IMG/VR virus record: IMGVR_UViG_3300045988_122072
Coordinates: 1-64,000 of that record
Strand: one strand, 5' to 3'
Length of the DNA: 64,000 nucleotides
Origin: a virus
Shown here one piece after another: positions 51,014-63,111 of this stretch (position 1 is the stretch's first letter; the number at the start of each line of letters is the position of its first letter). A program made the translations under genes and the position numbers. The notes under the pieces were generated by a model. It made no database searches, had not been told where the DNA came from, and saw only the letters and a list, made by a program, of their open reading frames with translations.

Positions 51014-51115
51014 CTAGTTACAACCCATGCTGGCTAAGCAACGAGGTGTGCAACGTCAATAAGTCACAATTTTTCCGATGAGCCGCGCCAGTTCCAACTG
51101 AATAAAACCTATATG

Positions 51116-51155
51116 AAGCCCTTGACCTTGCGTCGAGGGTTTCCTTATGGGCTTT
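51116..51155 (+). repeat. Conserved intergenic hairpin element, copy 2
   Basis: AAGCCCTTGAC-cttgc-GTCGAGGGTTT followed by CCTTATGGGCTTT. Confidence 0.65.
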
Positions 51156-51170
51156 GCTCAGAGACTTGCA

Positions 51171-51212
51171 TAAAACACGAATCAAACAGACAAGTGTAAA
51201 ACACGAGTCAAA
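51171..51212 (+). repeat. Direct repeats TAAAACACGA(A/G)TCAAA x2
   Basis: Copies lie at 51171-51186 and 51197-51212. A partial TAAAACGTGG lies at 51231-51240. All are upstream of 51249-51746. Confidence 0.6.
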
Positions 51213-51248
51213 TTTAATAGCCGACGGGCTTAAAACGTGGAGGTTTTT

Positions 51249-51746
51249 ATGAATAAGCAGGAAGTTATGAAGGCTCTGGCTATCTGCGGTGGTATCAATC
51301 GTGTGGGCTGTGAGGAGTGTCCTTACTATGGTGTGGAGAGCTGTGATGCTCGTATGAACAACGATGCTATTGCTCTGCTCAATTCTGAGCCTGAGCATAA
51401 CTCCAAACCCGCTTATCACACCGCTTACATCTACACCAAGCACGACAACCTGAGCAAGTGGTTCAATGTGAATTGCAGCAAGTTCATTGTTGACGGCAAC
51501 ATGGAGTACTCCGCACACTTCGTAAGAGCCGAAGCACATTATGCTCAGGAGCGTATCGTTAAGCTCGTTATCCTTGTTCGTCATGAGGCTGGCAAGTGCA
51601 TTTGCCGCATCAAGTGTCCCATCAATCCTCTGCCCATTAAGGGCGAGTTTGAAACTACTGCTGCCGCTGATGTTGGCAGACTGATTATGTCCATGGGCTG
51701 GAACTTCAGCCACAAGATTGAACTCAACTCTCCGCTTTACAAATAA
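51249..51746 (+). CDS. Hypothetical protein with N-terminal Cys motif
   Basis: ATG 51249 follows GGAGG; ALAICGGINRVGCEECPYYGVESCDARMNNDAIALL. Confidence 0.7.
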   Translation: MNKQEVMKALAICGGINRVGCEECPYYGVESCDARMNNDAIALLNSEPEHNSKPAYHTAYIYTKHDNLSKWFNVNCSKFIVDGNMEYSAHFVRAEAHYAQERIVKLVILVRHEAGKCICRIKCPINPLPIKGEFETTAAADVGRLIMSMGWNFSHKIELNSPLYK

Positions 51747-51822
51747 GGCGGAGCGCAAGAAAGGGGGTGATGCCAAAACAATTATATCCACGCAAATCAT
51801 TAAATTTTAGGAGGTAAATCAA

Positions 51823-52071
51823 ATGAAACTCAAAAGCGAAATTCCTTTCATCAAGGCAAACTTCAGTAAAATCCCCAACTTGCCCGAGTATGCCGAAAGA
51901 CTCAAGGCAAATGGGAACTACAAGGACTTCGGCACTCGTCTTGCTTGGGATTGCATCCACGCAACCATCCCAAGCGAAATTGTTTGCGGCTGGTACGACA
52001 AGTACAACTGCCATGACGACCATATCACAACCGCAGCAAAAGCTGCATTAAGGGAAATGGGGGTACTCTAA
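51823..52071 (+). CDS. Small hypothetical protein
   Basis: 82 aa; GGAGG SD. Confidence 0.7.
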   Translation: MKLKSEIPFIKANFSKIPNLPEYAERLKANGNYKDFGTRLAWDCIHATIPSEIVCGWYDKYNCHDDHITTAAKAALREMGVL

Positions 52072-52244
52072 TGAAGGCAAATGAATATATGCGCCAGCTT
52101 AAAGCCGCGTTCCCAAAGGCAGATGCAATTTATGAGGACACAATCATTGATATCTGTGGCATGGAAGGGTTTCTTTCTTTAAGGGAAAGCCGCCTGATCG
52201 AACTGTGCGGTGTTCTCGAATGCAGACGACTTTATGCCATTTAA
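52071..52244 (+). CDS. 57-aa hypothetical protein
   Basis: TAATG overlap with the upstream stop; MKANEYMRQLKAAFPKADAIYEDTIIDICGMEGF.. Confidence 0.5.
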   Translation: MKANEYMRQLKAAFPKADAIYEDTIIDICGMEGFLSLRESRLIELCGVLECRRLYAI

Positions 52245-52268
52245 GGCAAATGGAAAGGAGAATGTAAA

Positions 52269-52781
52269 ATGACTGAATATCAAGCTCAAGCGAAATCATT
52301 CCTTGCTAACTGCAAGGCAACAATGGAAATCAACTTTGTTGGAAGGGAAATTCCTTCCCACTGGTTGGGCGAAACCAAGCCGCACAACAAGTATCAGTTC
52401 ACCATCACAACTCCCAAAGGCAAATACACAAGTTACTTCTGGGACAGTCTGCACAACACCGAGGTAAGCGAAATGACTGCCGATAATCTTGCGTGTAAGA
52501 AATACAAGGCACACTATGATGTGCTCAGGATGCATGAAAGAACCAATGTGTTGCGTGAACTCAGAAAACTCAAGGCAAACGCAATTCCTACCGAATACGA
52601 CATCCTTGCAGCCGTAGAGAAGTACAGCTACGACAGCTTCAGCGACTTCTGCTCCGAGTCTGGCTACAGTACCGACAGTATCTCTGCAAGGGAAACATTC
52701 CTTGCTTGTGGTGAGGAATATGCAGGGCTTCGCCGTATCTTTACGGAGGAGCAAATGGAAATGTTAAGGGAAATTAATTAA
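52269..52781 (+). CDS. Hypothetical protein
   Basis: 170 aa; AAGGAG SD. Confidence 0.7.
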   Translation: MTEYQAQAKSFLANCKATMEINFVGREIPSHWLGETKPHNKYQFTITTPKGKYTSYFWDSLHNTEVSEMTADNLACKKYKAHYDVLRMHERTNVLRELRKLKANAIPTEYDILAAVEKYSYDSFSDFCSESGYSTDSISARETFLACGEEYAGLRRIFTEEQMEMLREIN

Positions 52782-52794
52782 GGAGGTAAGGCAA

Positions 52795-53028
52795 ATGACA
52801 TTCAAGGAATTTATGCACACACCTAACTCGCACCTTGACAATCTTGCAAGGGAAGCAGAAGCTCAGAGAACTGCTGACGAGGAAGCCATCTTTGATGAAC
52901 GAATCAGCAAGGCAGAACAGTGTCTGATTGACAACGGAATTGAACCAGATGAAGCACCTGTTGTTCTTCAGGCATTGGGTTACATTCTGCTCGATGAAGA
53001 ACTTTATCCAGAGGAGGAATCAAAATGA
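52795..53028 (+). CDS. Small acidic hypothetical protein
   Basis: 77 aa; GGAGG SD. Confidence 0.7.
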   Translation: MTFKEFMHTPNSHLDNLAREAEAQRTADEEAIFDERISKAEQCLIDNGIEPDEAPVVLQALGYILLDEELYPEEESK

Positions 53029-53231
53029 CCATTCAAGATAAACTCGGCATTATTTATGCTATTTCTGATTGTTCGGGTAGGTCATGCAATAATTGTGTCG
53101 CAGGGAAAACATGTCGTGGCGGACAAAAAACCTTTGTCATTGACCTGGTAAACGAAGTTAAAGCTCTTATCAAAGAGCGAGATGAGGCAGTTGCTGAACT
53201 TGCCGCCCTCAAAGAAAAACCCGAAAATTAA
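53025..53231 (+). CDS. Small hypothetical protein
   Basis: 68 aa; ATGA overlap; CSGRSCNNCVAGKTC motif followed by a coiled coil. Confidence 0.65.
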   Translation: MTIQDKLGIIYAISDCSGRSCNNCVAGKTCRGGQKTFVIDLVNEVKALIKERDEAVAELAALKEKPEN

Positions 53232-53236
53232 ACAAT

Positions 53237-53245
53237 ACAAAATTA
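53237..53245 (+). promoter_or_regulatory. ACAAAATTA box
   Basis: AACAATACAAAATTATTA lies in the 35-nt gap before the lipoprotein gene. Confidence 0.35.
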
Positions 53246-53266
53246 TTACTGAAAGGAAATAAAACC

Positions 53267-53686
53267 ATGAAAAAGATTCTTGCTATCGTTCTTGCCCTGC
53301 TCGTTATCCTGTCCATGACTGCTTGCGCCAACTCTACCATGAAGGCAACTGAGCCTACCGAAAAGGAAAGCGATATCATTGAAGATGCATTCGTAAGCGA
53401 AATTGATGCAGAGTTCAAGTTGATTTTCGGAGATGATATGCTCTTCTCCATGTACGAGGACGAATGCTACTCCATCGTAATTAGCTTTGAAGGAATTCAG
53501 GATATCTATGATTATTATCACAGAATCCCTGACGAAGTATCTGACTCCATCGCGGAAATGAGCAACGCAACTTGTGAAGCAGGTCTTGACAATATGTTTG
53601 TGGTGGTGAGTGACATTGACCAGACAGAGCTACTCATCATCTACAACGGGACTGATGTAACGGAGGAGGTGCTCAATGCAGACTGA
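53267..53686 (+). CDS. Putative lipoprotein
   Basis: MKKILAIVLALLVILSMTAC: signal peptide with a lipobox-like MTAC. Confidence 0.7.
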   Translation: MKKILAIVLALLVILSMTACANSTMKATEPTEKESDIIEDAFVSEIDAEFKLIFGDDMLFSMYEDECYSIVISFEGIQDIYDYYHRIPDEVSDSIAEMSNATCEAGLDNMFVVVSDIDQTELLIIYNGTDVTEEVLNAD

Positions 53687-53789
53687 AATCAAATGTGAAC
53701 ATGGGCATTACGTTGTCTATGTGAATGGAAAATTCTATTGCAGCGCTGATACATACAGCGAGGCAGAAAGAGAAATTGAGGAGGATTAA
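53676..53789 (+). CDS. 37-aa small protein
   Basis: GGAGGAGG lies 6 nt upstream; MQTEIKCEHGHYVVYVNGKFYCSADTYSEAEREIEED. Confidence 0.5.
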   Translation: MQTEIKCEHGHYVVYVNGKFYCSADTYSEAEREIEED

Positions 53790-53792
53790 ATC

Positions 53793-55607
53793 ATGTTCAA
53801 TGTTGGTGACAAGGTAATTGGCGTTCCTTGTTCTCCATACAGCATCACAGGATGTGGATGGATTGGCGTTGTAACTAAAATTATAGGCGAACACACCATG
53901 AAGGTGTTCGATGAAACATCCGGCGAATTTATTGTTGAGAAAAAATATTTCAAACTGTTCAAGGCAGAAGAAAAGGAGGAAAATAAAATGGATGTAAAAG
54001 AAATTATCACTGAGGAAGAAAAGGAAATGCTTCTTGAGGACATGAAGCATCTGCTTGATGAGTATGACTACGACTACACCGAGGAAGCGCTCGACAGGAT
54101 CATTAACACATGGGCAGAAAACAAGGCAGACCTTATCACCGCTTTCAAGAAGCATCCGAACTATCTCAAAGGCAAATTCATGATTGTATTCAGCCACAAT
54201 TTTGCACGCGAGACAAGCACCAATGCGCTTAGAGACTTTGCCAAATGGCTTCTGGATTTGGACAATACACTTGCAGTAAGGGAATTCATGCCTGATGACA
54301 TGAAAGACTATTGCACGTCTTATGGTAAAAAACTTCCTGAAGCTATCTTCAATTTCGTTATCAATCTGTACCAATTTTCTGACCAGTACATTGACGAGGC
54401 AACCGCAGGTAAATTTAATGAAATGTTGCCTGACATTCACGCTCACAACGGACAGAAGATGAGCCGCGTTATGAGCAAGCTGCTCACATACATTGGCTAC
54501 AATAAGCTGCCCGACTACAATAGGGAATTTGCAAAGTATGCTGATGCAATCAATCCGCTTCAGATTGTAAGGCATACCGTTCTTTCTGTGAACCCGCTTG
54601 ATTATCTCACCATGTCGTTTGGTAATTCGTGGGCAAGCTGCCATACCATCGACAAGACCAATAAGAGAAATATGCCGAACAGTTATGAGGGGATGTATTC
54701 CTCTGGCACTGTAAGCTACATGTTGGATAAGCCTTCCATGGTATTCTATACTGTGGACGCAGCCTACGGAGGGAAAGATTTCTGGCATGAGCCTAAGATT
54801 AACCGTCAGATGTTCCATTGGGCAGAAGACAAACTCGTACAGGGCAGACTGTACCCGCAAGACAATGACGGAAACGGTGGTGCATATGCTCCTTACAGAG
54901 AAATTGTCCAAAAGATTATGTCCGAAATCTTTGAGTTTCCGAATCTGTGGACTGTCTCAAAGGGAACTGATGCGGCAAGCAAATATGTGGTATCCGAAGG
55001 CACTCACTATAGAGACTATGAGAGCTACAGTAATTGCACACTTTCTCGTCCGAAGGGAAGCGAGAATGAAGAATACTTCACCGTTGGTCATGCACCGATT
55101 TGTATCAAGTGCGGCTATGAACATGACAAACAGGGAAATATTTCTTGCTGCGCTAGTAAAGTAACTTGCGCAAATTGCGGTTGTCTCATTGAAAGTGATA
55201 GCGAAGAAGTCGTTTGGATTAACGGAGAACCGTATTGCAGCGATTGTGTAAGCTGGTGCGACTGCTGTGATAGCTACGTTGTTGGCGGTGTAACAGAAGT
55301 AGATGGTGGCAATTTTGTGTGTGACGATTGTTTGGAAGATTACTACAGACAGTGTCACGATTGTGGAGAGTACCATAGGGAAATCCGCATGGTATATGTA
55401 GATTCCATTGAAGATTATGTTTGCCGCGATTGTCTTGAAGAGAATTATTGTTTCTGCGATGACTGTGGAGAATACTTCAGAAGCGGAGACTTGACAGAGC
55501 ATAACGGACGTTGGCTATGTGATAGTTGTCTTGAAGGAGCGGAAGCACAGGAAGAAGACGATGAAGAAGAAAACTCCGAGGCAAACGCCGAAGAACAGGC
55601 TATTTAA
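53793..55607 (+). CDS. Large protein of unknown function, paralogue 1 (WASCHTIDK core, four C-terminal Zn-ribbon repeats, acidic tail)
   Basis: 604 aa; GGAGGA SD. The core NPLDYLTMSFGNSWASCHTIDKTNKRNMPNSYEGMYSSGTVSYMLD..LVQGRLYPQDNDGN aligns with 58943-60484. Confidence 0.85.
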   Translation: MFNVGDKVIGVPCSPYSITGCGWIGVVTKIIGEHTMKVFDETSGEFIVEKKYFKLFKAEEKEENKMDVKEIITEEEKEMLLEDMKHLLDEYDYDYTEEALDRIINTWAENKADLITAFKKHPNYLKGKFMIVFSHNFARETSTNALRDFAKWLLDLDNTLAVREFMPDDMKDYCTSYGKKLPEAIFNFVINLYQFSDQYIDEATAGKFNEMLPDIHAHNGQKMSRVMSKLLTYIGYNKLPDYNREFAKYADAINPLQIVRHTVLSVNPLDYLTMSFGNSWASCHTIDKTNKRNMPNSYEGMYSSGTVSYMLDKPSMVFYTVDAAYGGKDFWHEPKINRQMFHWAEDKLVQGRLYPQDNDGNGGAYAPYREIVQKIMSEIFEFPNLWTVSKGTDAASKYVVSEGTHYRDYESYSNCTLSRPKGSENEEYFTVGHAPICIKCGYEHDKQGNISCCASKVTCANCGCLIESDSEEVVWINGEPYCSDCVSWCDCCDSYVVGGVTEVDGGNFVCDDCLEDYYRQCHDCGEYHREIRMVYVDSIEDYVCRDCLEENYCFCDDCGEYFRSGDLTEHNGRWLCDSCLEGAEAQEEDDEEENSEANAEEQAI

Positions 55608-55622
55608 GGGAGGTAAATGAAT

Positions 55623-56534
55623 ATGAATAAAGAGTTTGAAAAAATCTGCCGCATGTCTCAGAAATCACTAAAGAATCATGTGAAACAGAAACTGGTAAAA
55701 ACACACGGCGAAATTGTCAGCGGGGATGGTTTTGTGTTTGCACAAGGCAAATTCCCCGTGCTCTTGATGGCACATCTTGACACAGTGCACAAAAGCTTGC
55801 CGACCATGGTTGAATATGATACAGAACAGAACATTATTTCTTCTCCTAATGGAATTGGAGGGGATGATCGATGTGGTGTATACATGATTTTTAAGATTCT
55901 CAAAAAATATAACTGCTCAGTCCTTTTCTGCGAGGATGAGGAGATTGGATGTGTTGGCGCAGGGAAATTCATTAAAACAGAACTTGCAAAGGAACTTGAT
56001 TTTAATTACATCATTGAGTTCGACCGTGCCAACGCAAACGACGCAGTATTTTATCAGTGCGCAAATGATGAGTTCGAAAAATTCATCACAAAGGAATTCT
56101 ATAAGACAGCATTCGGTTCGTTCTCTGATATTTGCGAGGTTGCGCCATTCATTGGGTGTGCGGCAGTGAATCTCAGCTGTGGATATTACAGAGCGCATAC
56201 CACAAGCGAATATGTGGTGATTTCTGAAATGGAAAGGAGTATTCAGGAAGCATGCAAGATTCTTGAAAGGACAACGGAAAACGACAAATTCAATTATGTG
56301 GAAAGCTATTGCAGTGCCGCAGCAGATTGGATTGATGATATGTATGATGACTATTATGGCAGCAAGTATTATGTTGTCGAATATGTAGACAAAAATAATA
56401 TTATGTGCTGGTATGATACGATTGCACATTCCAAGGCAGAGGCAGTCGGCAAATTCGTTATGGAATGCCCCGACATTCCTTTCGAAAACGTAATTGACGT
56501 CATGGTTGACAGTAACGTATATAACTATATCTAA
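55623..56534 (+). CDS. M20/M28/M42-type zinc metallopeptidase-like protein
   Basis: LLMAHLDTVH, GIGGDDRCGV and FCEDEEIGCVGA, in the order expected for co-catalytic metallopeptidases. ATG 55623 has better SD spacing than 55617. Confidence 0.65.
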   Translation: MNKEFEKICRMSQKSLKNHVKQKLVKTHGEIVSGDGFVFAQGKFPVLLMAHLDTVHKSLPTMVEYDTEQNIISSPNGIGGDDRCGVYMIFKILKKYNCSVLFCEDEEIGCVGAGKFIKTELAKELDFNYIIEFDRANANDAVFYQCANDEFEKFITKEFYKTAFGSFSDICEVAPFIGCAAVNLSCGYYRAHTTSEYVVISEMERSIQEACKILERTTENDKFNYVESYCSAAADWIDDMYDDYYGSKYYVVEYVDKNNIMCWYDTIAHSKAEAVGKFVMECPDIPFENVIDVMVDSNVYNYI

Positions 56535-56542
56535 TAACAAAA

Positions 56543-56551
56543 ACAAAATTA
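56543..56551 (+). promoter_or_regulatory. ACAAAATTA box
   Basis: AACAAAAACAAAATTATT lies just after the peptidase stop. Confidence 0.35.
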
Positions 56552-56581
56552 TTGCCAACTGGCAGAAAGGGAATTGACATT

Positions 56582-56941
56582 ATGAAAAACATCACCATCA
56601 TCAAGGCTAAGTACATTGTGGAGAGCGACCGTCGTAAAGGTAAGGCAGTCATGTGTCTTGACACTGGTGAGGTATTCACTAGTGCAAAGGAATGTGCAGA
56701 TAAAAAGCATATGCCGTATGATAATTTTGCATATAAACTGCGCGATGGCAAGATTGCCGTGGATGGCAAACTGTATTGCTATGTCGAAGACATGAGCTAC
56801 TATGCAAACGCTATTCAGTCCAGAATCTATGCAAAGGCAAAGATGGAGTATGATGCGGCGGTGCTCCAGTTGGCAGAGATTGAGCGCAAAAAGACAGTTG
56901 CAAAGGCAAAGGTTGATAAGCTGAAAATGATTGTTGAATGA
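56582..56941 (+). CDS. Hypothetical protein
   Basis: ATG 56582 (the ORF-track start is TTG 56552); C-terminal coiled coil. Confidence 0.6.
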   Translation: MKNITIIKAKYIVESDRRKGKAVMCLDTGEVFTSAKECADKKHMPYDNFAYKLRDGKIAVDGKLYCYVEDMSYYANAIQSRIYAKAKMEYDAAVLQLAEIERKKTVAKAKVDKLKMIVE

Positions 56942-56955
56942 GGAGGTAAAGTAAA

Positions 56956-57150
56956 ATGAAAAAATTTCGCAAATGGTTCTTCAAACTGCTCACGGGCTAT
57001 GATCTGGTTGAATATGAAGATATATTGAATGAATGGGGCAAAACACTCAAGATTGCAAAGGAAGTACAACAAACTAATGAAGCAGTTTGCAAACATTCTG
57101 GTGAAGTTATAGATCTACTGAAGCGTTATGTTAATGAGGTGGCAAAGTAA
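56956..57150 (+). CDS. Small hypothetical protein
   Basis: 64 aa; GGAGG SD. Confidence 0.65.
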   Translation: MKKFRKWFFKLLTGYDLVEYEDILNEWGKTLKIAKEVQQTNEAVCKHSGEVIDLLKRYVNEVAK

Positions 57151-57156
57151 AGCAAG

Positions 57157-57185
57157 TTGACACAGCAGTATAATAAGGGTAAAAT
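57157..57185 (+). promoter_or_regulatory. Sigma-70-type promoter
   Basis: TTGACA (57157-57162), 17 nt, TAAAAT (57180-57185). Confidence 0.6.
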
Positions 57186-57231
57186 AATTACGAATAATGT
57201 ATAGGTCTTGTTAATAAAGGGAGGTAAACAA

Positions 57232-57378
57232 ATGGTTGTTATTTTACTTATTATCATTGCTTGTGTACTACTATTCGGAAAGGACGAAACAAAAGACGGG
57301 ATTATTGCTCTCATTGGAACTATCGTAGTCTTTGCAATTATTGCAATGATTGCAAATGCATGTGGATTTTTAGACTAA
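57232..57378 (+). CDS. 48-aa peptide with two hydrophobic segments
   Basis: GGGAGG SD; MVVILLIIIACVLLFGKDETKDGIIALIGTIVVFAIIAMIANACGFLD. Confidence 0.55.
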   Translation: MVVILLIIIACVLLFGKDETKDGIIALIGTIVVFAIIAMIANACGFLD

Positions 57379-57384
57379 ACAAAA

Positions 57385-57411
57385 TAGTTTGTCCTATAAT
57401 AGGGCAAACTA
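57385..57411 (+). promoter_or_regulatory. 11-bp palindrome enclosing a TATAAT box (operator-like)
   Basis: TAGTTTGTCCT-ATAAT-AGGGCAAACTA. TATAAT lies at 57395-57400, with TAGACT 18 nt upstream. Confidence 0.4.
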
Positions 57412-57455
57412 ACACGAAACGAAAATACAATACGAAATTAAAGGGAGGAATAAAT

Positions 57456-57878
57456 ATGAACGTATCAAAAGAAATCAAAAAGGCAGAGGCAATTAACCGC
57501 ATGAAAGAGCTTGGGCTGTTTGCTCCGTGTATCAAGGCATTCAAGAGAGGCGAGGTGCAGCTTTCTGAACAGACTGGAGGTTTGTATGAGTTCAGCAGCG
57601 ACAAGGAACTTACTGCAAAGGTGCAGGAGTTTGAAAAGGAAAACAATGCGCTTGTGTATCATGTAATTCATACTCCTGTAATGATTGACGGTGAAGTAAT
57701 GGATATGTACAATTTCTTGTATGTATCGGATTATCAAGAGGAATACGAAATGGACAATGCCGACATTAAGGAGGGATATGTGCTTGCATATGTATGGAAC
57801 AAAACTATTGACTACTTCAGCGAGTTTGGCAGCATTGCTGTCAAGGAAAGGTTCGGTGGGCTTGTGCGAATCGGCTAA
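57456..57878 (+). CDS. Hypothetical protein
   Basis: ATG 57456 follows GGGAGG; 140 aa. Confidence 0.7.
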   Translation: MNVSKEIKKAEAINRMKELGLFAPCIKAFKRGEVQLSEQTGGLYEFSSDKELTAKVQEFEKENNALVYHVIHTPVMIDGEVMDMYNFLYVSDYQEEYEMDNADIKEGYVLAYVWNKTIDYFSEFGSIAVKERFGGLVRIG

Positions 57879-57901
57879 GAAAATTTGTTGAATATGACAT
57901 A

Positions 57902-57929
57902 TTGAATTTTGAGAAAGAGGTGATATAAT
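57902..57929 (+). promoter_or_regulatory. Sigma-70-type promoter with extended -10
   Basis: TTGAAT (57902-57907), 16 nt, TGaTATAAT (-10 at 57924-57929). Confidence 0.55.
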
Positions 57930-57946
57930 AAAGGCAAAAGGGGCTG

Positions 57947-58084
57947 ATGCGAATGGAAAACAAAGAGTTACAAGAAGTGGTTGATGTAATACTTCAGGCG
58001 CTACTTGAAATGGAAGAAAGATTAAATAAGAAGTTCGATGAAATAGACAAGTGGTTCGACAAGTTTGAAGAAAAGTCAAAGTAA
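57947..58084 (+). CDS. 45-aa coiled-coil peptide
   Basis: MRMENKELQEVVDVILQALLEMEERLNKKFDEIDKWFDKFEEKSK; followed by a hairpin. Confidence 0.45.
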   Translation: MRMENKELQEVVDVILQALLEMEERLNKKFDEIDKWFDKFEEKSK

Positions 58085-58087
58085 GCG

Positions 58088-58109
58088 AGGGGCATTTGCC
58101 CCTTGTCTT
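58088..58109 (+). terminator. Weak terminator-like hairpin
   Basis: AGGGGC-attt-GCCCCT followed by TGTCTTA (poor U tract). Confidence 0.35.
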
Positions 58110-58116
58110 ACGCAAT

Positions 58117-58125
58117 ACAAAATTA
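58117..58125 (+). promoter_or_regulatory. ACAAAATTA box
   Basis: GCAATACAAAATTAACGGAGG lies directly upstream of the SD of 58139-58927. Confidence 0.35.
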
Positions 58126-58138
58126 ACGGAGGCATCTT

Positions 58139-58927
58139 ATGAAACTTTTACTTAGACAGTTTGGAGACGAATGCTACGTATGGAAAAATGCAGAAATGAA
58201 TGATGAAAAAACATTTATTGTAAATGGGAGAACTGTAAATCAGGGAAACGTCGTATCTATTTATAGAGACAATAGAAATAAATTCGTCAAATGTTCGCAT
58301 TGTGGCACTATTCTCAAGAACGCGGATGTGGAAATCAAGGAACATAGACTTAAAAGTACAACTTCTACAACATGTTTTGGATGCCCGAACTTAAGAACAT
58401 GTGAAGAAATTACAAAGTCGATTAAATATGTGTTGCAAGATGACGGTAAGTATATTGCAACGGTCAAAAGTGAAATGCAGCTCAAGTGCCGTCAGGGATG
58501 GGGCAGATTGTACGACATTAACTCCGAAGATGCAAGAACTGGTTGTAAATATAGGGGATGTATTGATGCAACGATGAAAAGCATTCAGGATATTTTCACA
58601 GAGTACCCCGGTATTTTTGATGACATTATTACCATTGACTGTATTCTGGATACAAATTTCGAAGACAGAACTTCACATAGAAACGGCATGACATATAAAC
58701 TCAAGGGAAGAGACAACATTGTGGCGGTTGTAAACAAGATTGGTATTGTTGACCATTTTAATATCAGTCGTTATTCGCACTGCTGGGATGTTGTATATTC
58801 AAAAAAGTATAATGAATTTTATAAAATTTGGAACGGTTTATATATTAAATGGAATCCAGATGACGAGGATATGCCGCACGGAACCTTGCAAAGAATCAAA
58901 GACAGAATTGCAAAGCTGTATGCTTAA
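58139..58927 (+). CDS. Hypothetical protein
   Basis: 262 aa; GGAGG SD; CSHCG..CFGCP Cys pairs. Confidence 0.75.
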   Translation: MKLLLRQFGDECYVWKNAEMNDEKTFIVNGRTVNQGNVVSIYRDNRNKFVKCSHCGTILKNADVEIKEHRLKSTTSTTCFGCPNLRTCEEITKSIKYVLQDDGKYIATVKSEMQLKCRQGWGRLYDINSEDARTGCKYRGCIDATMKSIQDIFTEYPGIFDDIITIDCILDTNFEDRTSHRNGMTYKLKGRDNIVAVVNKIGIVDHFNISRYSHCWDVVYSKKYNEFYKIWNGLYIKWNPDDEDMPHGTLQRIKDRIAKLYA

Positions 58928-58942
58928 AGGAGGACATAAATT

Positions 58943-60484
58943 ATGGCAAGATACAATGTTGGTGATCGCGTAGTTGTAAGAGAAGGCCTGGGGACTCGTT
59001 CCAGTAATTATGCATATGGATATGGCGACGGGATGGAGCAATATAATGGGCGGACTGTTACGATTGCAAGTTCCAGTGGAAATCAATACCGTATTGAAGA
59101 AGACAACCGTCGGTATTTTTGGGGTGATTCTGATTTTGTTGGTTTAGCAGATGGCTCTAGTGTTCCAGTAGCTCAGCACGCCACTTTCACAAAGGCAAAT
59201 CTGAAAGAAGCATGGGGTCAGTATTGTGACACCGACAAACTCGTTGATGATGTGATGACATTGCTCACTAAGTATAATCACAGAAATAGTGAGCACGGCG
59301 TTTGCACTATGCTTAATGAATACTTCACCAACAAGAAAGACTTGATTGAGCTGTTACAGAAATCTGAGCATTACATGGGAGATATGCGCATGATGATTGA
59401 CATTGAACTTGCAAGAGAAAATAATGCAAGGGACATTTGTGATTTCTGTGATAATTTCTATGTCAATGTAGGTGCAAGTAAACTGTTACTAAAGTACGAA
59501 GATGAGAACGGAAAGAAACTTGAGGATTATCTTAGAACTGGAGTAAAGTACATTACGGCAAAAGATTTGATGAAGCGCGAAGTAGTTTCCAAGTTGAAGA
59601 AAATAACGGATGTACAAAGTAAGTTCGCAGATGATGGGGCAACGATTGCATCTCATGCAAATGAAGATGAATGCTACAATGTGGTACGTAAATTTAGAGG
59701 GGTAAGTCTTTCTACTATTAGCAAAGAATTTTCTGATAGCATGGACGAGAAATATAAAGTAAGAGAAGGTATGAAAACCAGCCGCGCCTTTAACCGCGTG
59801 TGTGGCTTTTATGGAGTAGATAAATTACCTGAATATAACAAACTCTTTGCTCAGTATGCAGACATGGTGAGCAGTCTTAAGCGAAAGCTAAAGTTCTTCA
59901 TCAGTGTGAATCCTATTGACTACTTAACTATGAGTTTTGGCGTAAACTGGGCGAGTTGTCATACGATTGATAAAGAGAATCGTAGACATATAGAAAATAG
60001 TTATCATGGTATGTACTGCGCAGGTACTGTGAGCTATATGCTTGATGCAACATCGATTATCACATTTGTCCATGACCATGTACCCACTGACTGGGAAGAC
60101 GGTAAGATTTATCGCTGCATGTTCCATTATGGACAAAACATTCTTGTGCAAGGACGTGTCTATCCACAAGGGAATGATGGTAATACAGATTTGTACAAAG
60201 TATTCCGTAATTATGTTCAGAATGAGATTACGCCGCTGATTGGGATTACTGATACTACGTGGACGAAAAAGACAAGTGGAGATGTTGCATGTAATGTTAG
60301 CTCTTGCGGGTTGCATTATAAAGATTATGTTCAATTTAGTTATTGTAATGTGTCTTATCCAAGAGAAAGAAGTTTGGCAAAAGACAACGTGATTATGATT
60401 GGTCATACTGGCATCTGTCCTTATTGTGGAAGGGAATTTAGTGCAGATAAGGGAGCAATTAGCCATGCAAATTGTGTAATTTGA
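58943..60484 (+). CDS. Large protein of unknown function, paralogue 2 (WASCHTIDK core)
   Basis: 513 aa; GGAGGA SD. NPIDYLTMSFGVNWASCHTIDKENRRHIENSYHGMYCAGTVSYMLD..LVQGRVYPQGNDGN. A single C-terminal CPYCG..H..C. Confidence 0.85.
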   Translation: MARYNVGDRVVVREGLGTRSSNYAYGYGDGMEQYNGRTVTIASSSGNQYRIEEDNRRYFWGDSDFVGLADGSSVPVAQHATFTKANLKEAWGQYCDTDKLVDDVMTLLTKYNHRNSEHGVCTMLNEYFTNKKDLIELLQKSEHYMGDMRMMIDIELARENNARDICDFCDNFYVNVGASKLLLKYEDENGKKLEDYLRTGVKYITAKDLMKREVVSKLKKITDVQSKFADDGATIASHANEDECYNVVRKFRGVSLSTISKEFSDSMDEKYKVREGMKTSRAFNRVCGFYGVDKLPEYNKLFAQYADMVSSLKRKLKFFISVNPIDYLTMSFGVNWASCHTIDKENRRHIENSYHGMYCAGTVSYMLDATSIITFVHDHVPTDWEDGKIYRCMFHYGQNILVQGRVYPQGNDGNTDLYKVFRNYVQNEITPLIGITDTTWTKKTSGDVACNVSSCGLHYKDYVQFSYCNVSYPRERSLAKDNVIMIGHTGICPYCGREFSADKGAISHANCVI

Positions 60485-60499
60485 AAGGAGAAAGAATAA

Positions 60500-60655
60500 A
60501 TGTCATACAACATGCTGGATATGGAACTTGATTATAAGGATCAGATTAAGTATCTTGAGTCCGAAGTCAAAAGGCTGAAAGCAAAGTGCGATAGGCTTAT
60601 CCGAGAGAATAGAGAATTGAAAGGAGATAACAATGAGAGATCCAAAGAGAATTGA
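60500..60655 (+). CDS. 51-aa coiled-coil peptide
   Basis: AAGGAG SD; MSYNMLDMELDYKDQIKYLESEVKRLKAKCDRLIRENRELKGD..; overlaps the next gene by 23 nt. Confidence 0.45.
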   Translation: MSYNMLDMELDYKDQIKYLESEVKRLKAKCDRLIRENRELKGDNNERSKEN

Positions 60656-60815
60656 CAAGTTTTGTAATATGCTCAAGGCATACTTGTATACGGGTGACGA
60701 CCGGAGGGCTATGCAGTTAGTGTGTAATCTTCAGGCACAGATTGAAAGTGATGGATTCTATCTGGAAGACGATAAGGCAATGGAACTGATTGGGCAGATG
60801 TTAAAAGGAGAATAA
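60633..60815 (+). CDS. Small hypothetical protein
   Basis: 60 aa; AAGGAG SD. Confidence 0.6.
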   Translation: MRDPKRIDKFCNMLKAYLYTGDDRRAMQLVCNLQAQIESDGFYLEDDKAMELIGQMLKGE

Positions 60816-60816
60816 A

Positions 60817-61149
60817 ATGCTGATTAATTATAACAATAATGAAACTAATCATGTAAAGTTTGTTTCTTATACTGGGAAATATCCAAATCTTTGCACTGGA
60901 GATTTAACACTTGAAATTGATGGAGAGATTGCAACGTTTGGCTATGGCTTTGAGTCTAAAGAGAAACCGAAATACCATCGGTTTTGGAGTAGCGGCGGTG
61001 GTCTAAATCCCAATTATGAGGGAGCGTGGCAAGGCGAATGGAAAATTGATATTAATGATATTCCCGAACAGTTCCGTAAATATGCAACGGAAATTAATGA
61101 AGTGTTCAATGATAACGTTGAGTGGGGATGTTGTGGAGGATGTATCTAA
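60817..61149 (+). CDS. Small hypothetical protein ending in WGCCGGCI
   Basis: 110 aa; AAGGAG SD. Confidence 0.7.
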   Translation: MLINYNNNETNHVKFVSYTGKYPNLCTGDLTLEIDGEIATFGYGFESKEKPKYHRFWSSGGGLNPNYEGAWQGEWKIDINDIPEQFRKYATEINEVFNDNVEWGCCGGCI

Positions 61150-61155
61150 AACGAT

Positions 61156-61164
61156 ACAAAATTA
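61156..61164 (+). promoter_or_regulatory. ACAAAATTA box
   Basis: ACGATACAAAATTAAAGGAGG lies directly upstream of the SD of 61180-61608. Confidence 0.35.
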
Positions 61165-61179
61165 AAGGAGGATTTCATT

Positions 61180-61608
61180 ATGGGTAACAGAGCTGTAATC
61201 ACTACGAGGGAGAACTTTAATAACGATGGAGTAGGTGTATACCTGCACTGGAACGGAGGTCGAGATAGTGTACAAGCATTCTTAACCTATTGCAAAATGA
61301 AAGGATATAGAGAGCCGACAAGTGATAATTATGGGTGGGCAAGACTCTGCCAGGTGATTGGAAACTTCTTTGGCGGGGAACTTTCTATTGGGATTGATAA
61401 GTGTAGTCATCTTGACTATGATAACTACGATAACGGAACTTATATCATTGATGGGTGGGACATTGTAGACAGAGAATATTTTAATGAAAACGAGCAGTAT
61501 AATTACGACTTGTATGGAATGCTTTGCGACATTGATGATGCACAGCCAACAAGAGAACAGCTTGGCGCAAATAAAATTAAAGAGATGATTAATAAAGGAG
61601 GATTTTAA
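61180..61608 (+). CDS. Hypothetical protein (YLHWNGG motif)
   Basis: 142 aa; GGAGGA SD; GVGVYLHWNGGRDSVQAFLTYC. Confidence 0.75.
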   Translation: MGNRAVITTRENFNNDGVGVYLHWNGGRDSVQAFLTYCKMKGYREPTSDNYGWARLCQVIGNFFGGELSIGIDKCSHLDYDNYDNGTYIIDGWDIVDREYFNENEQYNYDLYGMLCDIDDAQPTREQLGANKIKEMINKGGF

Positions 61609-61609
61609 T

Positions 61610-62203
61610 ATGGGACAGAGGCTTGTAGTAACAGTAAAAAGTACAGGAGAAGATTTATGTAAAATGTATTTTCATTGGAGTGCATACACAATCTCAGCTC
61701 TAATTGAAGTGAGAGATATGATGGCTGAGTTTCAAATGGAAACAAATAGTAAAGAAGATGCAATTCTTTACTTCATCAGATATTGTGAAGAGTATGGTGG
61801 AGGTATTGATGGTGGTATGGACGGCAAGGAATGGAATTATATCACCAATAAGTATCCGCATTATAAGTTCAAAAGCGAAAACATTAACAGAAATAGAGGG
61901 TTGATTGCAATTTCTGAAGATGGGATGGATGAAATGCAAAGTTGGAGCGAGGGAGATATTTATATCAATCTTGATGAAATGACTGTGCATAATGAACTTT
62001 TCTGGTATTATGACGATATTGATGAATATAATCGAGAGCTGGCAGACCGAGAAGATGAATCTATTACGCTGGACAAAATTCCAGAAGTAGGAGAGATTTG
62101 TGATTTTGATCTTGAAGATATTGACGATGTAATTGCAAATCTTGAAGATATTCCAGGTCATGTTTGTCGTAATGGAAATGAAATTTATGAACTGATTGCT
62201 TAA
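61610..62203 (+). CDS. Hypothetical protein (MYFHWSAYT motif), likely a distant paralogue of 61180-61608
   Basis: 197 aa; GGAGGA SD. It has the same N-terminal layout (beta-strand, H-W, helix) as the upstream gene. Confidence 0.75.
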   Translation: MGQRLVVTVKSTGEDLCKMYFHWSAYTISALIEVRDMMAEFQMETNSKEDAILYFIRYCEEYGGGIDGGMDGKEWNYITNKYPHYKFKSENINRNRGLIAISEDGMDEMQSWSEGDIYINLDEMTVHNELFWYYDDIDEYNRELADREDESITLDKIPEVGEICDFDLEDIDDVIANLEDIPGHVCRNGNEIYELIA

Positions 62204-62216
62204 GGAGGATTTAAAA

Positions 62217-62690
62217 ATGAATAATCAATATGAAGTAACTGCTACTGCTATCAAACAGGCAGAAGAAGCATTAGAAACATTAAAAGATTTTTCAGAAAGT
62301 CAATATAAGGCAAAAGGCAAAACAATGATGGAACAAATTATTGATTATATCACTCGTACGCTATCCAACGCAGATTATATGTTTTGTGGTTGTAAGCATT
62401 ATCATCTTGCATTAAGCAATACTAGAAAACAATTCACTTTTTATATTTATGATAATAGTGCGATTGGTTCTGGTTATCCAGTCTTTTCAATTACGACTAA
62501 TGGAGAGGTAAAAAATGTTTGCACCTTAAGCGAATGGATGATACTTACTCTTGTAAAAGAATGGGGAGAATTCAAAAAAGAACTCGACTTTTCAATTAAG
62601 ACAACAATGAAAATGCGTACAAAAAGTATTAATGATCGACTTGCTCATATTGGATATGTAAATGAGCAGTTATCAAAATGGCATGTATAA
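62217..62690 (+). CDS. Hypothetical protein
   Basis: ATG 62217 follows GGAGGA. Confidence 0.7.
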   Translation: MNNQYEVTATAIKQAEEALETLKDFSESQYKAKGKTMMEQIIDYITRTLSNADYMFCGCKHYHLALSNTRKQFTFYIYDNSAIGSGYPVFSITTNGEVKNVCTLSEWMILTLVKEWGEFKKELDFSIKTTMKMRTKSINDRLAHIGYVNEQLSKWHV

Positions 62691-62712
62691 ATAATTAAAG
62701 GAGGATTTTATT

Positions 62713-63099
62713 ATGAAAGAAATTAAAAAGGAAACTATTGTATATCAAGCATGTGATGGGAAAGAGTTTGTGAATAAAAATGATTGTATGGAATATGAAG
62801 CAAAAGTATTTAAGGATATTAATTTAAAACATTTTGATATTAATATTCCATATGGAGATGATGGATTATATAGCTGGATTGTTTACAAGGTAAATTCTGA
62901 AAATGAGTTTAATATGTTACACGCATATCTTGATTATAACTATGATGATATCTATGGCATTGATGGATATGAAGGAAATGGTTGGTACATTGTACAGGAA
63001 TCTGAATTTGCATGGGCAGATTTACGTCTTATGAATGATGTTGTAAGAGATTTTACAAATATGCTTGCAGAAATTGCAGAAAACACTTTGAAATTTTAA
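62713..63099 (+). CDS. Hypothetical protein
   Basis: 128 aa; GGAGGA SD. Confidence 0.75.
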   Translation: MKEIKKETIVYQACDGKEFVNKNDCMEYEAKVFKDINLKHFDINIPYGDDGLYSWIVYKVNSENEFNMLHAYLDYNYDDIYGIDGYEGNGWYIVQESEFAWADLRLMNDVVRDFTNMLAEIAENTLKF

Positions 63100-63111
63100 G
63101 GAGGAAATCAA

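What the first reader, a model, noticed from the sequence alone, without database searches (positions are those of the whole stretch)
53793..60484. Two large paralogues share an unrecognised NP(L/I)DYLTMSFG-NWASCHTIDK core, and they bracket a peptidase
The 604-aa and 513-aa proteins align over about 200 aa:
- KLP(D/E)YN..FA.YAD;
- NP(L/I)DYLTMSFG.(S/N)WASCHTIDK.N.R...NSY.GMY..GTVSYMLD;
- (K/N)(L/I)LVQGR(L/V)YPQ.NDGN;
- a shared Y(R/K)DY..(Y/F)S(N/Y)C tail.

Both begin with a short beta-rich, SH3/KOW-like N-terminus (NVGD(K/R)V(I/V)). The invariant Cys-His in WASCH could be catalytic.

I cannot match this to any family I know. They are the largest proteins of an otherwise small-gene early arm. 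Between them lie a metallopeptidase, two promoters and small membrane peptides. This makes them candidates for a host-takeover or anti-defence function.
Basis: partly seen in the sequence, partly recalled or inferred. Interest (0 to 1): 0.7.

Follow-up and report, generated by a model that had tools for sequence, protein, structure and literature searches.

The report
Unnamed mobile-element protein paired with peptidase
The two big phage proteins are real, ancient paralogues of a very large, unnamed protein family with no recognisable relatives, and this family is almost always encoded next to (or fused with) a small zinc peptidase in gut phages and conjugative elements, so it is a widespread two-gene module whose function is unknown.

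Summary
P1 (53793-55607, 604 aa) and P2 (58943-60484, 513 aa) are paralogues (BLASTP E 1e-62). They match over about 400 aa, not 200.

The shared core has no match in Pfam, NCBIfam, PADLOC or PDB sequences. A confident AlphaFold model (pLDDT 86.5) has no PDB fold neighbour. Yet the family is very large: 1,044 clusters at 50% identity with E<=1e-30, all named "hypothetical".

The main new result is that the peptidase is not merely bracketed. It is the conserved partner of the core.
- A homologue starts just downstream of the core gene, or is fused to it, in 41/41 bacterial-element copies and 70/92 phage copies.
- In 4/4 reciprocal tests, starting from the peptidase, a core gene lies directly upstream.
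- 800-aa natural fusions exist.
- In the window, P1's stop codon, a GGGAGG ribosome-binding site and the peptidase ATG lie within 12 nt.

The peptidase is a minimal M20/M28-type domain with all di-zinc residues 100% conserved. P2 is an orphan paralogue.

Cys283 is essentially universal. The adjacent His is not (SCM, SCQ and SCP variants occur).

The N-terminal Tudor/SH3-like barrel and the C-terminal LIM-like zinc-finger arrays are variable add-ons.

The context is a phage early-type arm and a pcfK-pcfJ accessory operon of conjugative elements. This fits an entry or establishment effector, but the biochemical function is still inferred.

The parts
53793..55607 (+). P1: 604-aa member of the unnamed core family, the peptidase-linked copy
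   Evidence: ORF. Paralogue of P2, E 1e-62. My family HMM scores 718 bits. AF2 full-length model has pLDDT 83.6.
53793..53957 (+). P1 residues 1-55: small five-stranded beta-barrel (Tudor/SH3-like), a lineage-specific add-on
   Evidence: Strands at 7-10, 24-31, 35-40, 44-49 and 53-55. Foldseek matches: PHF1 and PHF20 Tudor domains (TM 0.76-0.78, rmsd about 2.2 A) and Lyn SH3 (TM 0.67). Absent from the bacterial-element members, where the median N-terminal extension is 2 aa.
53994..55085 (+). P1 residues 68-431: the constant core, made of a helical half and an alpha/beta half, with no known relative
   Evidence: AF2 pLDDT 86.5. No PDB fold match: best E 0.9, TM <= 0.17. No Pfam, NCBIfam or PDB sequence match. 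Invariant across 71 diverse members: D251, S265, D270, W280, S282, C283, G300, G305, S308, Y309, D312, K335, R338, Q350, Y354, R369, N384, W386, Y406, D408.
54585..54656 (+). P1 signature motif SVNPLDYLTMSFGNSWASCHTIDK (residues 265-288), with near-universal Cys283
   Evidence: Coordinates. Conservation. Cys is kept and His replaced in remote members. The only Cys loss seen is P0077, WASYH, a single-member cluster. Part of the motif and the ~20 residues after it (about 276-305) form the least confident, coil-like stretch of the core model: pLDDT 61-69 in the core-only model and 67-79 in the full-length model.
55086..55517 (+). P1 residues 432-575: array of CxxC zinc ribbons (LIM-like tandem zinc fingers). 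The first knuckle (C437/C440) is universal; the rest vary.
   Evidence: Nine CxxC motifs. Foldseek matches LMO2 2xjy_A (E 4e-4) and PINCH 7d2t_B (E 1.3e-3). Profile search against PDB gives LIM proteins at E 2e-3. CxxC count ranges from 0 to 12 across the family.
55521..55604 (+). P1 residues 577-604: acidic C-terminal helix
   Evidence: Helix 577-603. 13 of the last 30 residues are D or E in close orthologues, fewer in more distant ones.
55608..55613 (+). GGGAGG ribosome-binding site between the P1 stop (55605-55607) and the peptidase ATG (55617)
   Evidence: Read directly from the sequence.
55617..56534 (+). Partner enzyme: 305-aa minimal M20/M28-type (MH clan) di-zinc exopeptidase domain
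   Evidence: Pfam Peptidase_M28 scores 23.5 bits (cut-off 21.3); M20 scores 24.4 (cut-off 24.6). phrog_34186 E 5e-43 and phrog_4191 'peptidase' E 7e-30. H53, D55, D83, D84, E108, E109, D136 and H194 are 100% conserved in 110 homologues. Nearest PDB entries: PepT 3gb0 (E 6e-8), tripeptidase 3rza (E 1e-7), CPG2 (E 1e-3). 38% identical (E 8e-67) to the C-terminal half of the 800-aa fusion P0135.
58943..60484 (+). P2: 513-aa orphan paralogue of the core family. It has a longer N-terminal beta-domain, a single C2HC-type zinc knuckle, and no peptidase of its own.
   Evidence: ORF. Family HMM scores 478 bits. One CxxC after the core in the near-identical P2-type proteins, and P2's tail ICPYCG...ISHANC read directly. 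N-terminus hits phrog_7488 and phrog_17705, both of unknown function. No peptidase remnant elsewhere in the window. A related phage (L005) does have a peptidase after its P2-type copy.
59903..59974 (+). P2 signature motif SVNPIDYLTMSFGVNWASCHTIDK (residues 321-344, Cys339)

Best explanation
P1 and P2 belong to a very large, unnamed protein family of phages and conjugative elements.

Anatomy:
- The constant part is about 360 aa. It has a helical half, then an alpha/beta half carrying the NPxD(Y/F)LxMS...WxSC motif, then one zinc knuckle. It has no detectable relative of known function.
- It works as a two-gene unit with the protein encoded directly behind it, a minimal M20/M28-type di-zinc exopeptidase that lacks the lid domain of its nearest relatives.
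- In the window this unit is P1 plus the 305-aa peptidase, which are translationally coupled. P2 is an ancient extra copy that either borrows that peptidase in trans or acts alone.

Most likely mode of action (inferred, not shown):
- The mobile element makes the pair soon after its DNA enters a cell.
- The core is the specificity and first-step catalytic subunit. It uses the near-universal Cys283 and the surrounding invariant Asp, Arg, Tyr and His residues.
- The variable Tudor/SH3-like and LIM-like modules recruit a protein or peptidyl substrate.
- The exopeptidase then trims or deacylates the product.
- The purpose is establishment of the element, meaning counter-defence or remodelling of a host factor.

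Shown: paralogy, family size, lack of known relatives, obligate linkage and fusion with the peptidase, intact peptidase active site, variable accessory domains, and the mobile-element context.

Inferred: that the core is an enzyme, that Cys283 is catalytic, that the two proteins form a complex, the timing of expression, and the target.
For: - Paralogy: E 1e-62.
- Family size: 4,154, 2,404 and 1,044 clusters at E<=1e-3, 1e-10 and 1e-30. All named members are 'hypothetical'.
- No known relatives.
- Linkage with the peptidase:
  - 40 adjacent plus 1 fused of 41 bacterial copies, and 70 of 92 viral copies. The exceptions are second paralogues or truncated genes.
  - It is the only universally linked neighbour family.
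  - 4/4 reciprocal look-ups from the peptidase find a core gene directly upstream.
  - Natural 800-aa fusions occur on up to 292 contigs.
  - A stop-SD-ATG junction couples the genes in the window.
- Peptidase catalytic residues are 100% conserved. It is PepT/CPG2-like. In those relatives the two matching stretches of the catalytic domain lie about 150-200 residues further apart than in this 305-aa protein, which fits the missing lid domain.
- About 20 invariant, mostly polar residues survive at under 30% identity.
- Accessory domains vary while the core stays constant.
- Paralogue expansion occurs in 21/73 phage loci and 0/47 bacterial loci.
- Context:
  - a phage small-gene arm divergent from the structural genes;
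  - conjugative-element operons with a RecD-like helicase, DnaG-Zn/YodL, PcfK-like (named 'Cas9 inhibitor AcrIIA9 family' in RefSeq), PcfJ, LigA and ParM;
  - SprT-like and RadC neighbours;
  - YodL and RadC are typical of conjugative-element conflict proteins (PMC5512222).
Against: - No biochemical or genetic data exist for any member.
- The most conserved motif lies in the least confident part of the model (pLDDT 61-69). I could not inspect coordinates, so the geometry around Cys283 is unknown.
- Remote members in Enterococcus myophages have no peptidase nearby, and P2-type copies lack one. The core can therefore function without an adjacent peptidase.
- M20/M28 enzymes mostly act on small peptides or N-acyl amino acids, which fits a small-molecule role as well as a protein-directed one.
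- The anti-defence reading rests only on neighbourhood.
- NCBI's 'AcrIIA9 family' name was not reproduced by NCBIfam HMMs.
Confidence: 0.4

Rival explanations
1. Small-molecule or peptide-conjugate chemistry. The alpha/beta half of the core is a diverged GNAT-like (acyl- or aminoacyl-transferase superfamily) domain. With the M20-type amidohydrolase it makes, edits or destroys an N-acyl or peptidyl compound, such as a signalling peptide or a cell-wall or cofactor conjugate. It could also add or remove N-terminal residues of proteins.
For: - The predicted strand and helix order of residues 256-420 is b1-a1-a2-b2-b3-b4-a3-b5-a4-b6-b7, as in GNAT folds (the topology comparison is from my knowledge of the fold).
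- GNAT acetyltransferases recur among the sub-threshold Foldseek hits: 6 of the top 50 in PDB and 8 of the top 50 in BFVD.
- Many M20 enzymes are deacylases, e.g. acetylornithine deacetylase and CPG2.
Against: - All GNAT hits have E about 1 and TM about 0.3.
- The Q/RxxGxG/A acetyl-CoA loop is not conserved. The bacterial clade has no glycines there, read from the L001 ORF.
- No Pfam GNAT hit appears in 71 members.
- LIM-like and Tudor/SH3-like modules suggest macromolecular partners.
Confidence: 0.15
2. A defence or exclusion system carried by mobile elements. The core senses a competing phage or plasmid, and the peptidase is the effector.
For: - It is a two-gene module on phages, plasmids and ICE-like elements, which often carry defence cargo.
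- The peptidase gives a weak PADLOC hit to candidate system PDC-S15 (E 7e-4).
- Paralogue diversification occurs in phages.
Against: - The core has no PADLOC hit.
- The module sits inside co-directional early or establishment operons with PcfK/PcfJ/YodL/primase genes rather than in defence islands.
- It occurs in ~140-kb Enterococcus phages, which I believe from general knowledge, not tested here, to be virulent myophages.
- A lid-less exopeptidase is an unusual toxic effector.
Confidence: 0.12
3. Two independent Cys-His hydrolases act as host-takeover or anti-defence proteins, and they happen to flank an unrelated peptidase.
For: WASCH is conserved in 115 of the first 120 homologues. The genes lie in an early-type arm.
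Against: - The His is Met, Gln or Pro in remote members.
- No cysteine-peptidase fold or family match was found.
- The peptidase is the near-obligate, sometimes fused, partner.
Confidence: 0.08
4. A DNA replication or processing accessory factor. The zinc ribbons and the Tudor/SH3-like barrel bind nucleic acid, and the protein works with the neighbouring ligase, primase and partition genes.
For: LigA lies immediately upstream, with a primase-type Zn ribbon, a RecD-like helicase and ParM nearby, in the bacterial elements. Zinc ribbons are abundant.
Against: - None of these neighbours is conserved in phages. Only the peptidase is.
- A dedicated exopeptidase partner is unexplained.
- The zinc arrays resemble protein-binding LIM modules.
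Confidence: 0.08
5. A non-enzymatic scaffold or regulator, for example a chaperone or inhibitor of the peptidase, or a structural early protein.
For: No catalytic family could be assigned. Protein-interaction-type modules sit at both ends.
Against: About 20 invariant polar residues are kept at under 30% identity across thousands of clusters. This is more typical of an active or ligand-binding site than of a scaffold.
Confidence: 0.1

Closest known systems
M20/M28 (MH clan) di-zinc peptidases: PepT tripeptidase, carboxypeptidase G2, acetylornithine deacetylase (for the partner gene only)
   Same: The H-x-D, D, E-E, D and H metal and catalytic residues are all present and 100% conserved. Pfam M28 scores above its cut-off. 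The profile hits PepT and CPG2 structures.
   Different: - The catalytic domain is only about 230 aa, with no lid or dimerisation domain.
- NCBIfam scores lie far below every equivalog cut-off.
- It is always paired or fused with the unnamed core.
- The subfamily itself is unnamed.
ArdC-type and SprT-like entry proteins of conjugative elements, which combine a binding domain with a metallopeptidase (analogy recalled from the literature, not tested here)
   Same: They are carried by mobile elements, sit in establishment or leading-type gene sets, and couple a recognition module to a metallopeptidase. A SprT-like gene lies in one related locus.
   Different: Those peptidases are zincins, not MH clan. 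The recognition part here is a novel fold, not ArdC-N. No sequence or fold similarity was found.
PcfJ-like proteins (PF14284)
   Same: PcfJ is a frequent neighbour, within 8 kb upstream in 32/44 bacterial loci. It also carries zinc ribbons and an (H/S)C-containing motif, and its function is also unknown.
   Different: They are not homologous at testable sensitivity. hhalign probability is 5% and covers a zinc ribbon only. No PF14284 hit appears in any member. PcfJ is rarely nearby in phages (4/73 loci).
GNAT / acyl-CoA N-acyltransferase fold
   Same: The order of secondary-structure elements in the alpha/beta half is the same, and weak Foldseek hits recur.
   Different: Scores are not significant (E about 1, TM about 0.3). 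The cofactor loop motif is not conserved. A 30-residue loop carrying the WxSC motif is inserted between helices a1 and a2.
LIM domains and Tudor/SH3-like barrels (accessory modules only)
   Same: Fold-level matches: LMO2 and PINCH at E 4e-4 to 1e-3, and PHF1/PHF20 Tudor domains at TM 0.76-0.78.
   Different: No Pfam LIM, Tudor or SH3 hit. The modules are present or absent, and vary in number, by lineage. They are add-ons and do not define the family.

Membership tests
Any curated protein family (Pfam-A 2025, NCBIfam 20, PADLOC 2.0) for the core | hmmscan score above the family cut-off | tested here: not met
   P1 and P2 have no hit above any cut-off. 71 diverse members give only weak zinc-ribbon hits. 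Remote members give none. PHROGs gives only phrog_29713, of unknown function, at E 4e-6.
Any solved structure (core) | Sequence or fold similarity to a PDB chain | tested here: not met
   phmmer and profile searches give nothing for the core. Foldseek with a pLDDT 86.5 model gives a best E of 0.9 and TM <= 0.17. The same holds for the full-length model.
PcfJ-like (PF14284) | Profile match to the PcfJ domain | tested here: not met
   No hmmscan hit. hhalign of 139 core sequences against 39 PcfJ sequences gives probability 5.4%.
Papain-like or other Cys-His dyad hydrolases | Conserved catalytic Cys and His, and a cysteine-peptidase fold | tested here: not met
   Cys283 is conserved, but His284 is replaced by Met, Gln or Pro. 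No such fold appears among Foldseek hits.
Thymidylate synthase / dCMP hydroxymethylase superfamily. Considered because of an NPxD..M..(P/S)CH motif resemblance recalled from memory. | Profile or fold similarity to TS structures, which are abundant in the PDB | tested here: not met
   No TS chain appears in the PDB profile search at E<=10 or among the listed top 50 Foldseek PDB hits.
GNAT / NAT superfamily | Significant fold match | tested here: inconclusive
   The topology is compatible, and GNAT hits recur (6/50 in PDB, 8/50 in BFVD). All have E about 1 and TM about 0.3.
GNAT / NAT superfamily | Q/RxxGxG/A acyl-CoA pyrophosphate-binding loop after strand b4 | tested here: not met
   P1 has QDNDGNGG, but the bacterial clade has TDLEDQKT at the same place, read from the ORFs. 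The position is not among the conserved columns.
MH clan peptidases, M20/M28 (partner gene) | Two-zinc ligand set H, D, E, D/E, H plus a catalytic Asp/Glu | tested here: met
   H53, D55, D83/D84, E108/E109, D136 and H194 are 100% conserved in 110 homologues.
MH clan peptidases, M20/M28 (partner gene) | Pfam gathering score | tested here: met
   Peptidase_M28 scores 23.5 bits against a cut-off of 21.3. Peptidase_M20 scores 24.4 against 24.6, just below.
M20 peptidases proper (PepT, CPG2) | Lid / dimerisation domain inserted in the catalytic domain | tested here: not met
   The protein has only 305 aa. The two halves of the catalytic domain align to PepT 71-158 and 320-370, with no counterpart of the insert between them.
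Known anti-defence or defence systems | Match to a catalogued defence protein (PADLOC), or experimental anti-defence activity | tested here: not met
   No PADLOC hit for the core. The peptidase gives only a weak hit to candidate PDC-S15 (E 7e-4). Anti-defence catalogues (dbAPIS, AntiDefenseFinder) were not available, and activity cannot be tested with these tools.
SH3-like/Tudor small beta-barrel (P1 N-terminus) | Five-stranded barrel with a fold match | tested here: met
   TM 0.67-0.78 on the target and rmsd about 2.2 A over about 56 residues. The E-values are weak (0.07-0.2), as expected for a domain this small.
LIM-like tandem zinc fingers (P1 C-terminus) | Paired CxxC zinc knuckles with a fold match to LIM domains | tested here: met
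   Nine CxxC motifs. Foldseek gives LMO2 at E 4e-4 with probability 1.00. The profile search gives E 2e-3. This is fold-level only: there is no Pfam LIM hit.

The most novel reading that the evidence does not exclude
The core is a new enzyme fold. Together with its lid-less M20-type exopeptidase, it forms a previously unrecognised class of mobile-element entry effector shared by phages and conjugative plasmids/ICEs. It would be a two-step protein- or peptide-processing machine, for example cleaving or re-tagging and then trimming the N-termini of host defence or regulatory proteins. The variable LIM-like and Tudor/SH3-like modules would supply target specificity.
Probability: 0.25. Interest if true: 0.85.

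Novelty: categorically new. Interest (0 to 1): 0.66.

Why it matters
This is one of the larger protein families without any name. There are over 1,000 clusters at 50% identity with strong matches, in human-gut phages, Oscillospiraceae/Lachnospiraceae conjugative elements and cultured Enterococcus phages. It has a confidently predicted fold with no counterpart among solved structures.

Its strict coupling or fusion with an active-looking exopeptidase gives a concrete, testable handle on function. A module shared between phages and conjugative elements, sitting next to PcfK/AcrIIA9-like and PcfJ genes, is the kind of place where new counter-defence or establishment mechanisms have been found.

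If the pair proves to be an effector, it would add a new biochemical activity to the phage-host and plasmid-host arms race. It would also annotate thousands of 'hypothetical' genes in gut metagenomes. If it proves to be mundane, for example peptide scavenging, the family would still gain a first functional assignment.

Tried and rejected
- **Near-identical DNA in catalogued phages:** none (megablast). tblastn found only an unannotated 4.4-kb faecal contig and remote Enterococcus phage genes.
- **YTH domain:** the P2 hit (E 0.003, 17.8 bits against a cut-off of 22.1) is below threshold, absent from P1 and from 71 relatives, and treated as chance.
- **PcfJ remote homology:** my own idea, from the HHCV/SCH motif resemblance and the neighbourhood. 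Rejected by hhalign (probability 5%).
- **Thymidylate-synthase-like motif (NPxD..M..PCH):** no TS hit in PDB profile or fold searches.
- **Cys-His dyad protease:** the His is not conserved.
- **Informative domain fusions:** among 71 diverse, mostly long members only zinc ribbons appear. Among 120 peptidase homologues there is no other partner.
- **Other conserved neighbours:** none is universal. The 262-aa gene before P2 is restricted mainly to the close phage relatives (25 loci).
- **Promoter enrichment between the genes:** none.
- **Remnant of a second peptidase after P2:** none.
- **Literature:** searches on PcfJ, PcfK, YodL, AcrIIA9, and leading region plus peptidase found nothing describing this family.
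- **NCBIfam confirmation of the 'AcrIIA9 family' name:** not reproduced. Pfam calls that neighbour PcfK-like.

Full report
**1. The observation**

ORFs of 604 aa (P1, 53793-55607, +) and 513 aa (P2, 58943-60484, +) exist as stated. BLASTP between them gives E 1e-62 and 32% identity over P1 76-462 / P2 96-511. The paralogy is far beyond chance and spans about 400 aa, not 200.

All quoted motifs are present. The signature SVNP(L/I)DYLTMSFG..WASCHTIDK lies at P1 265-288 (nt 54585-54656) and P2 321-344 (nt 59903-59974).

The genes are the largest of a + strand arm of small genes. This arm diverges, at a GC-skew switch near 48 kb, from a - strand block of large genes. That block includes tail-fibre-repeat, Mtd_N and RdRP-type polymerase hits.

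Promoter-like sites between the genes are not enriched: 25 found against 23.1 +/- 4.9 in shuffles. Only one small two-segment hydrophobic peptide is evident, at 57208-57378.

**2. No known relatives, but a very large family**

Neither protein reaches any Pfam, NCBIfam or PADLOC cut-off. PHROGs gives only families of unknown function. PDB sequence searches with single sequences and with a 45-sequence profile find nothing for the core.

An AlphaFold2 model of P1 76-445 is confident (pLDDT 86.5, pTM 0.69). Even so, Foldseek finds no PDB neighbour: best E 0.9, TM <= 0.17. In BFVD it matches only uncharacterised phage proteins. The best has E 7.5e-13, and the hits include proteins of Dickeya phage JA29 and Agrobacterium phage Atu_ph07.

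Yet the family is large.
- A word-indexed search found 1,635 clusters at 90% identity.
- An exhaustive profile search of 1.84 billion representatives found 4,154, 2,404 and 1,044 clusters at E<=1e-3, 1e-10 and 1e-30.
- Every source name is 'hypothetical protein'.

Members occur in several settings.
- ~150-170-kb human-gut viral contigs.
- Clostridia genomes and MAGs, mostly Oscillospiraceae and Lachnospiraceae.
- One Vescimonas plasmid.
- Remotely, ~140-kb Enterococcus phages such as EF1 (E 7e-24 and 1e-19 for two paralogues).

**3. The peptidase is the partner, not a bystander**

A distant clade first seen in a faecal contig (L001) led to 799-800-aa relatives. The C-terminal half of these is 38% identical (E 8e-67) to the window's 305-aa peptidase. 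These fusions are seen on 78 to 292 contigs, so they are not assembly artefacts.

I then scanned about 120 fetched loci with my own HMMs.
- In bacterial elements, 40 of 41 core genes have a peptidase homologue starting within 200 nt downstream (from about 110 nt of apparent overlap to a 118-nt gap), and 1 is fused.
- In viral contigs, 70 of 92 do.
- The 22 exceptions are second paralogues (like P2) or truncated genes.
- One related phage (L005) has a peptidase after both paralogues.
- The window has no remnant of a second peptidase.

Clustering of all neighbours shows that no other family is universally linked. In the reverse direction, four peptidases were chosen from a peptidase-profile search. 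All four have a core-family gene (E<=1e-142) immediately upstream.

In the window, the P1 stop codon (55605-55607), GGGAGG (55608-55613) and the peptidase ATG (55617) are contiguous.

**4. The peptidase**

Pfam Peptidase_M28 scores above its cut-off and M20 just below. Across 110 homologues, H53, D55, D83, D84, E108, E109, D136 and H194 are 100% conserved. These are the di-zinc ligands and catalytic acid/base residues of the MH clan, by established knowledge of M20/M28 enzymes.

Its nearest solved relatives are PepT, another tripeptidase and carboxypeptidase G2. They align only through the two halves of the catalytic domain, and the lid/dimerisation insert is missing.

The core may supply substrate recognition in place of that lid. 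This is my inference.

**5. Anatomy of the core proteins**

The full-length P1 model (pLDDT 83.6) and Foldseek give the following layout.
- Residues 1-55: a five-stranded barrel matching Tudor/Agenet/SH3-type domains (TM 0.67-0.78, rmsd about 2.2 A).
- Residues 59-64: disordered.
- Residues 68-431: the novel core.
- Residues 432-575: zinc-ribbon hairpins matching tandem LIM domains (LMO2 at E 4e-4).
- Residues 577-603: an acidic helix.

Across the family these end modules vary.
- Bacterial copies have no N-terminal extension (median 2 aa); viral copies have 0-294 aa.
- CxxC counts range from 0 to 12.
- P1-type copies have 9 CxxC, P2-type 1, and bacterial copies 6-7.

Invariant across 71 diverse members are D251, S265, D270, W280, S282, C283, G300, G305, S308, Y309, D312, K335, R338, Q350, Y354, R369, N384, W386, Y406 and D408. 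The first zinc knuckle, C437/C440, is nearly invariant.

The Cys is lost only in one single-member cluster. The His after it is Met, Gln or Pro in remote members. A Cys-His dyad is therefore not a family feature.

The WxSC end of the motif and the residues after it form a long loop of lower confidence, pLDDT 61-69.

The alpha/beta half has the strand and helix order of a GNAT fold. GNAT proteins recur among sub-threshold hits: 6/50 in PDB and 8/50 in BFVD. These have E about 1 and TM about 0.3, and the acyl-CoA loop motif is not conserved. I treat this as a hint only.

**6. Context**

In bacterial elements the pair lies at the end of a co-directional operon. The gene order is as follows.
1. 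RecD-like helicase
2. A hypothetical gene
3. DnaG-Zn-ribbon/YodL protein
4. PcfK-like protein
5. PcfJ
6. LigA or a remnant of it
7. Core
8. Peptidase
9. ParM-like partition gene (not annotated at this position in the Vescimonas plasmid)

The PcfK-like protein hits PF14058 at E 2e-14, and RefSeq names it 'Cas9 inhibitor AcrIIA9 family protein'. NCBIfam HMMs did not reproduce that name.

PcfJ lies within 8 kb in 32/44 bacterial loci but only 4/73 viral loci. SprT-like and RadC genes occur nearby in other loci.

YodL, RadC and primase domains are described as typical of conjugative-element conflict ('polyvalent') proteins in PMC5512222. That paper does not describe this family.

Phage loci often carry 2-3 core paralogues (21/73 loci), whereas bacterial loci never do (0/47).

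**7. Interpretation**

The following points are firmly shown.
- A two-gene (sometimes one-gene) module consists of a novel-fold core and a lid-less MH-clan exopeptidase.
- It is shared by large gut phages and conjugative elements.
- It has a constant catalytic-looking centre and variable binding modules.

The rest is inferred. I read the pair as an entry or establishment effector acting on a protein or peptidyl substrate, with Cys283 in the first step and the exopeptidase in the second. I put about 0.4 on this overall picture.

Lesser weight goes to four rivals:
- a GNAT-like small-molecule or N-terminal-modification reading;
- a defence or exclusion system;
- a DNA-processing accessory factor;
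- a non-enzymatic scaffold.

**8. Novelty**

The core has no detectable sequence relative in curated libraries and no fold relative in the PDB. The module has not been described in the literature I could search. The partner enzyme is a new, unnamed subfamily of a known clan.

Noticed in passing
window 40625-43471 (-): A 948-aa protein hits Pfam RdRP PF05183 (E 7.5e-15, above cut-off) and phrog_25339 (E 2e-153, unknown function). It is probably a YonO-like single-subunit, two-barrel RNA polymerase encoded by the phage.
   Followed up: partly
window 4052-11140 (-), 16554-18167 (-) and 1866-3236 (-): There is a giant 2,362-aa protein with a C-terminal DUF6273. There is also a 537-aa protein with an Mtd_N (major tropism determinant N-terminal) domain, and a tail-fibre-repeat protein. 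The Mtd_N hit raises the question of a diversity-generating retroelement target. This was not examined.
   Followed up: no
window 50000-58000 versus 58000-64000: The block holding P1, the peptidase and their upstream neighbours is richer in GC (0.40-0.45; GC3 0.44-0.54). The block holding the 262-aa gene, P2 and the downstream genes is lower (GC 0.35-0.39; GC3 0.27-0.38). The two blocks may have different acquisition histories.
   Followed up: partly
L005 (ena:ERZ27271080 k141_786128, 169.6 kb) 14022-16317: In this related phage the P2-type paralogue (449 aa) is also followed by its own peptidase (310 aa). The window's lineage seems to have lost, or never gained, the second peptidase.
   Followed up: yes
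L130 (Enterococcus phage EF1, MF001358.1) 3578-5449 and 6676-7875: A cultured ~142-kb Enterococcus phage carries two remote paralogues of the core (623 and 399 aa; the 623-aa copy has the motif WRSCM) about 1.2 kb apart, with no peptidase within 4 kb. This is a tractable system for genetics.
   Followed up: partly
L131 (Vescimonas fastidiosa plasmid pMM35_02, NZ_AP023417.1) 3830-4678; L002 3793-4560: The gene upstream of PcfJ is PcfK-like (PF14058), and RefSeq names it 'Cas9 inhibitor AcrIIA9 family protein'. The NCBIfam HMM library did not reproduce that name.
   Followed up: partly
L006 7720-9915; L131 6910-8907; L002 6786-6992: A full NAD-dependent DNA ligase (LigA) sits immediately upstream of the core gene in two bacterial elements. 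In a third it is reduced to a 68-aa Nlig-Ia remnant.
   Followed up: no
window 57208-57378 (+): A 56-aa ORF with two hydrophobic segments has no homologue in any of the ~130 related loci. Its reality as a gene is uncertain.
   Followed up: partly
L008 (Paludibacteraceae MAG, 165.6-kb contig) and L011 (Absconditabacterales MAG, 125-kb contig): These contigs are binned as Bacteroidota and CPR genomes. They carry close or moderately close core and peptidase pairs and have phage-like sizes, so they are likely phage contigs mis-binned into MAGs.
   Followed up: no
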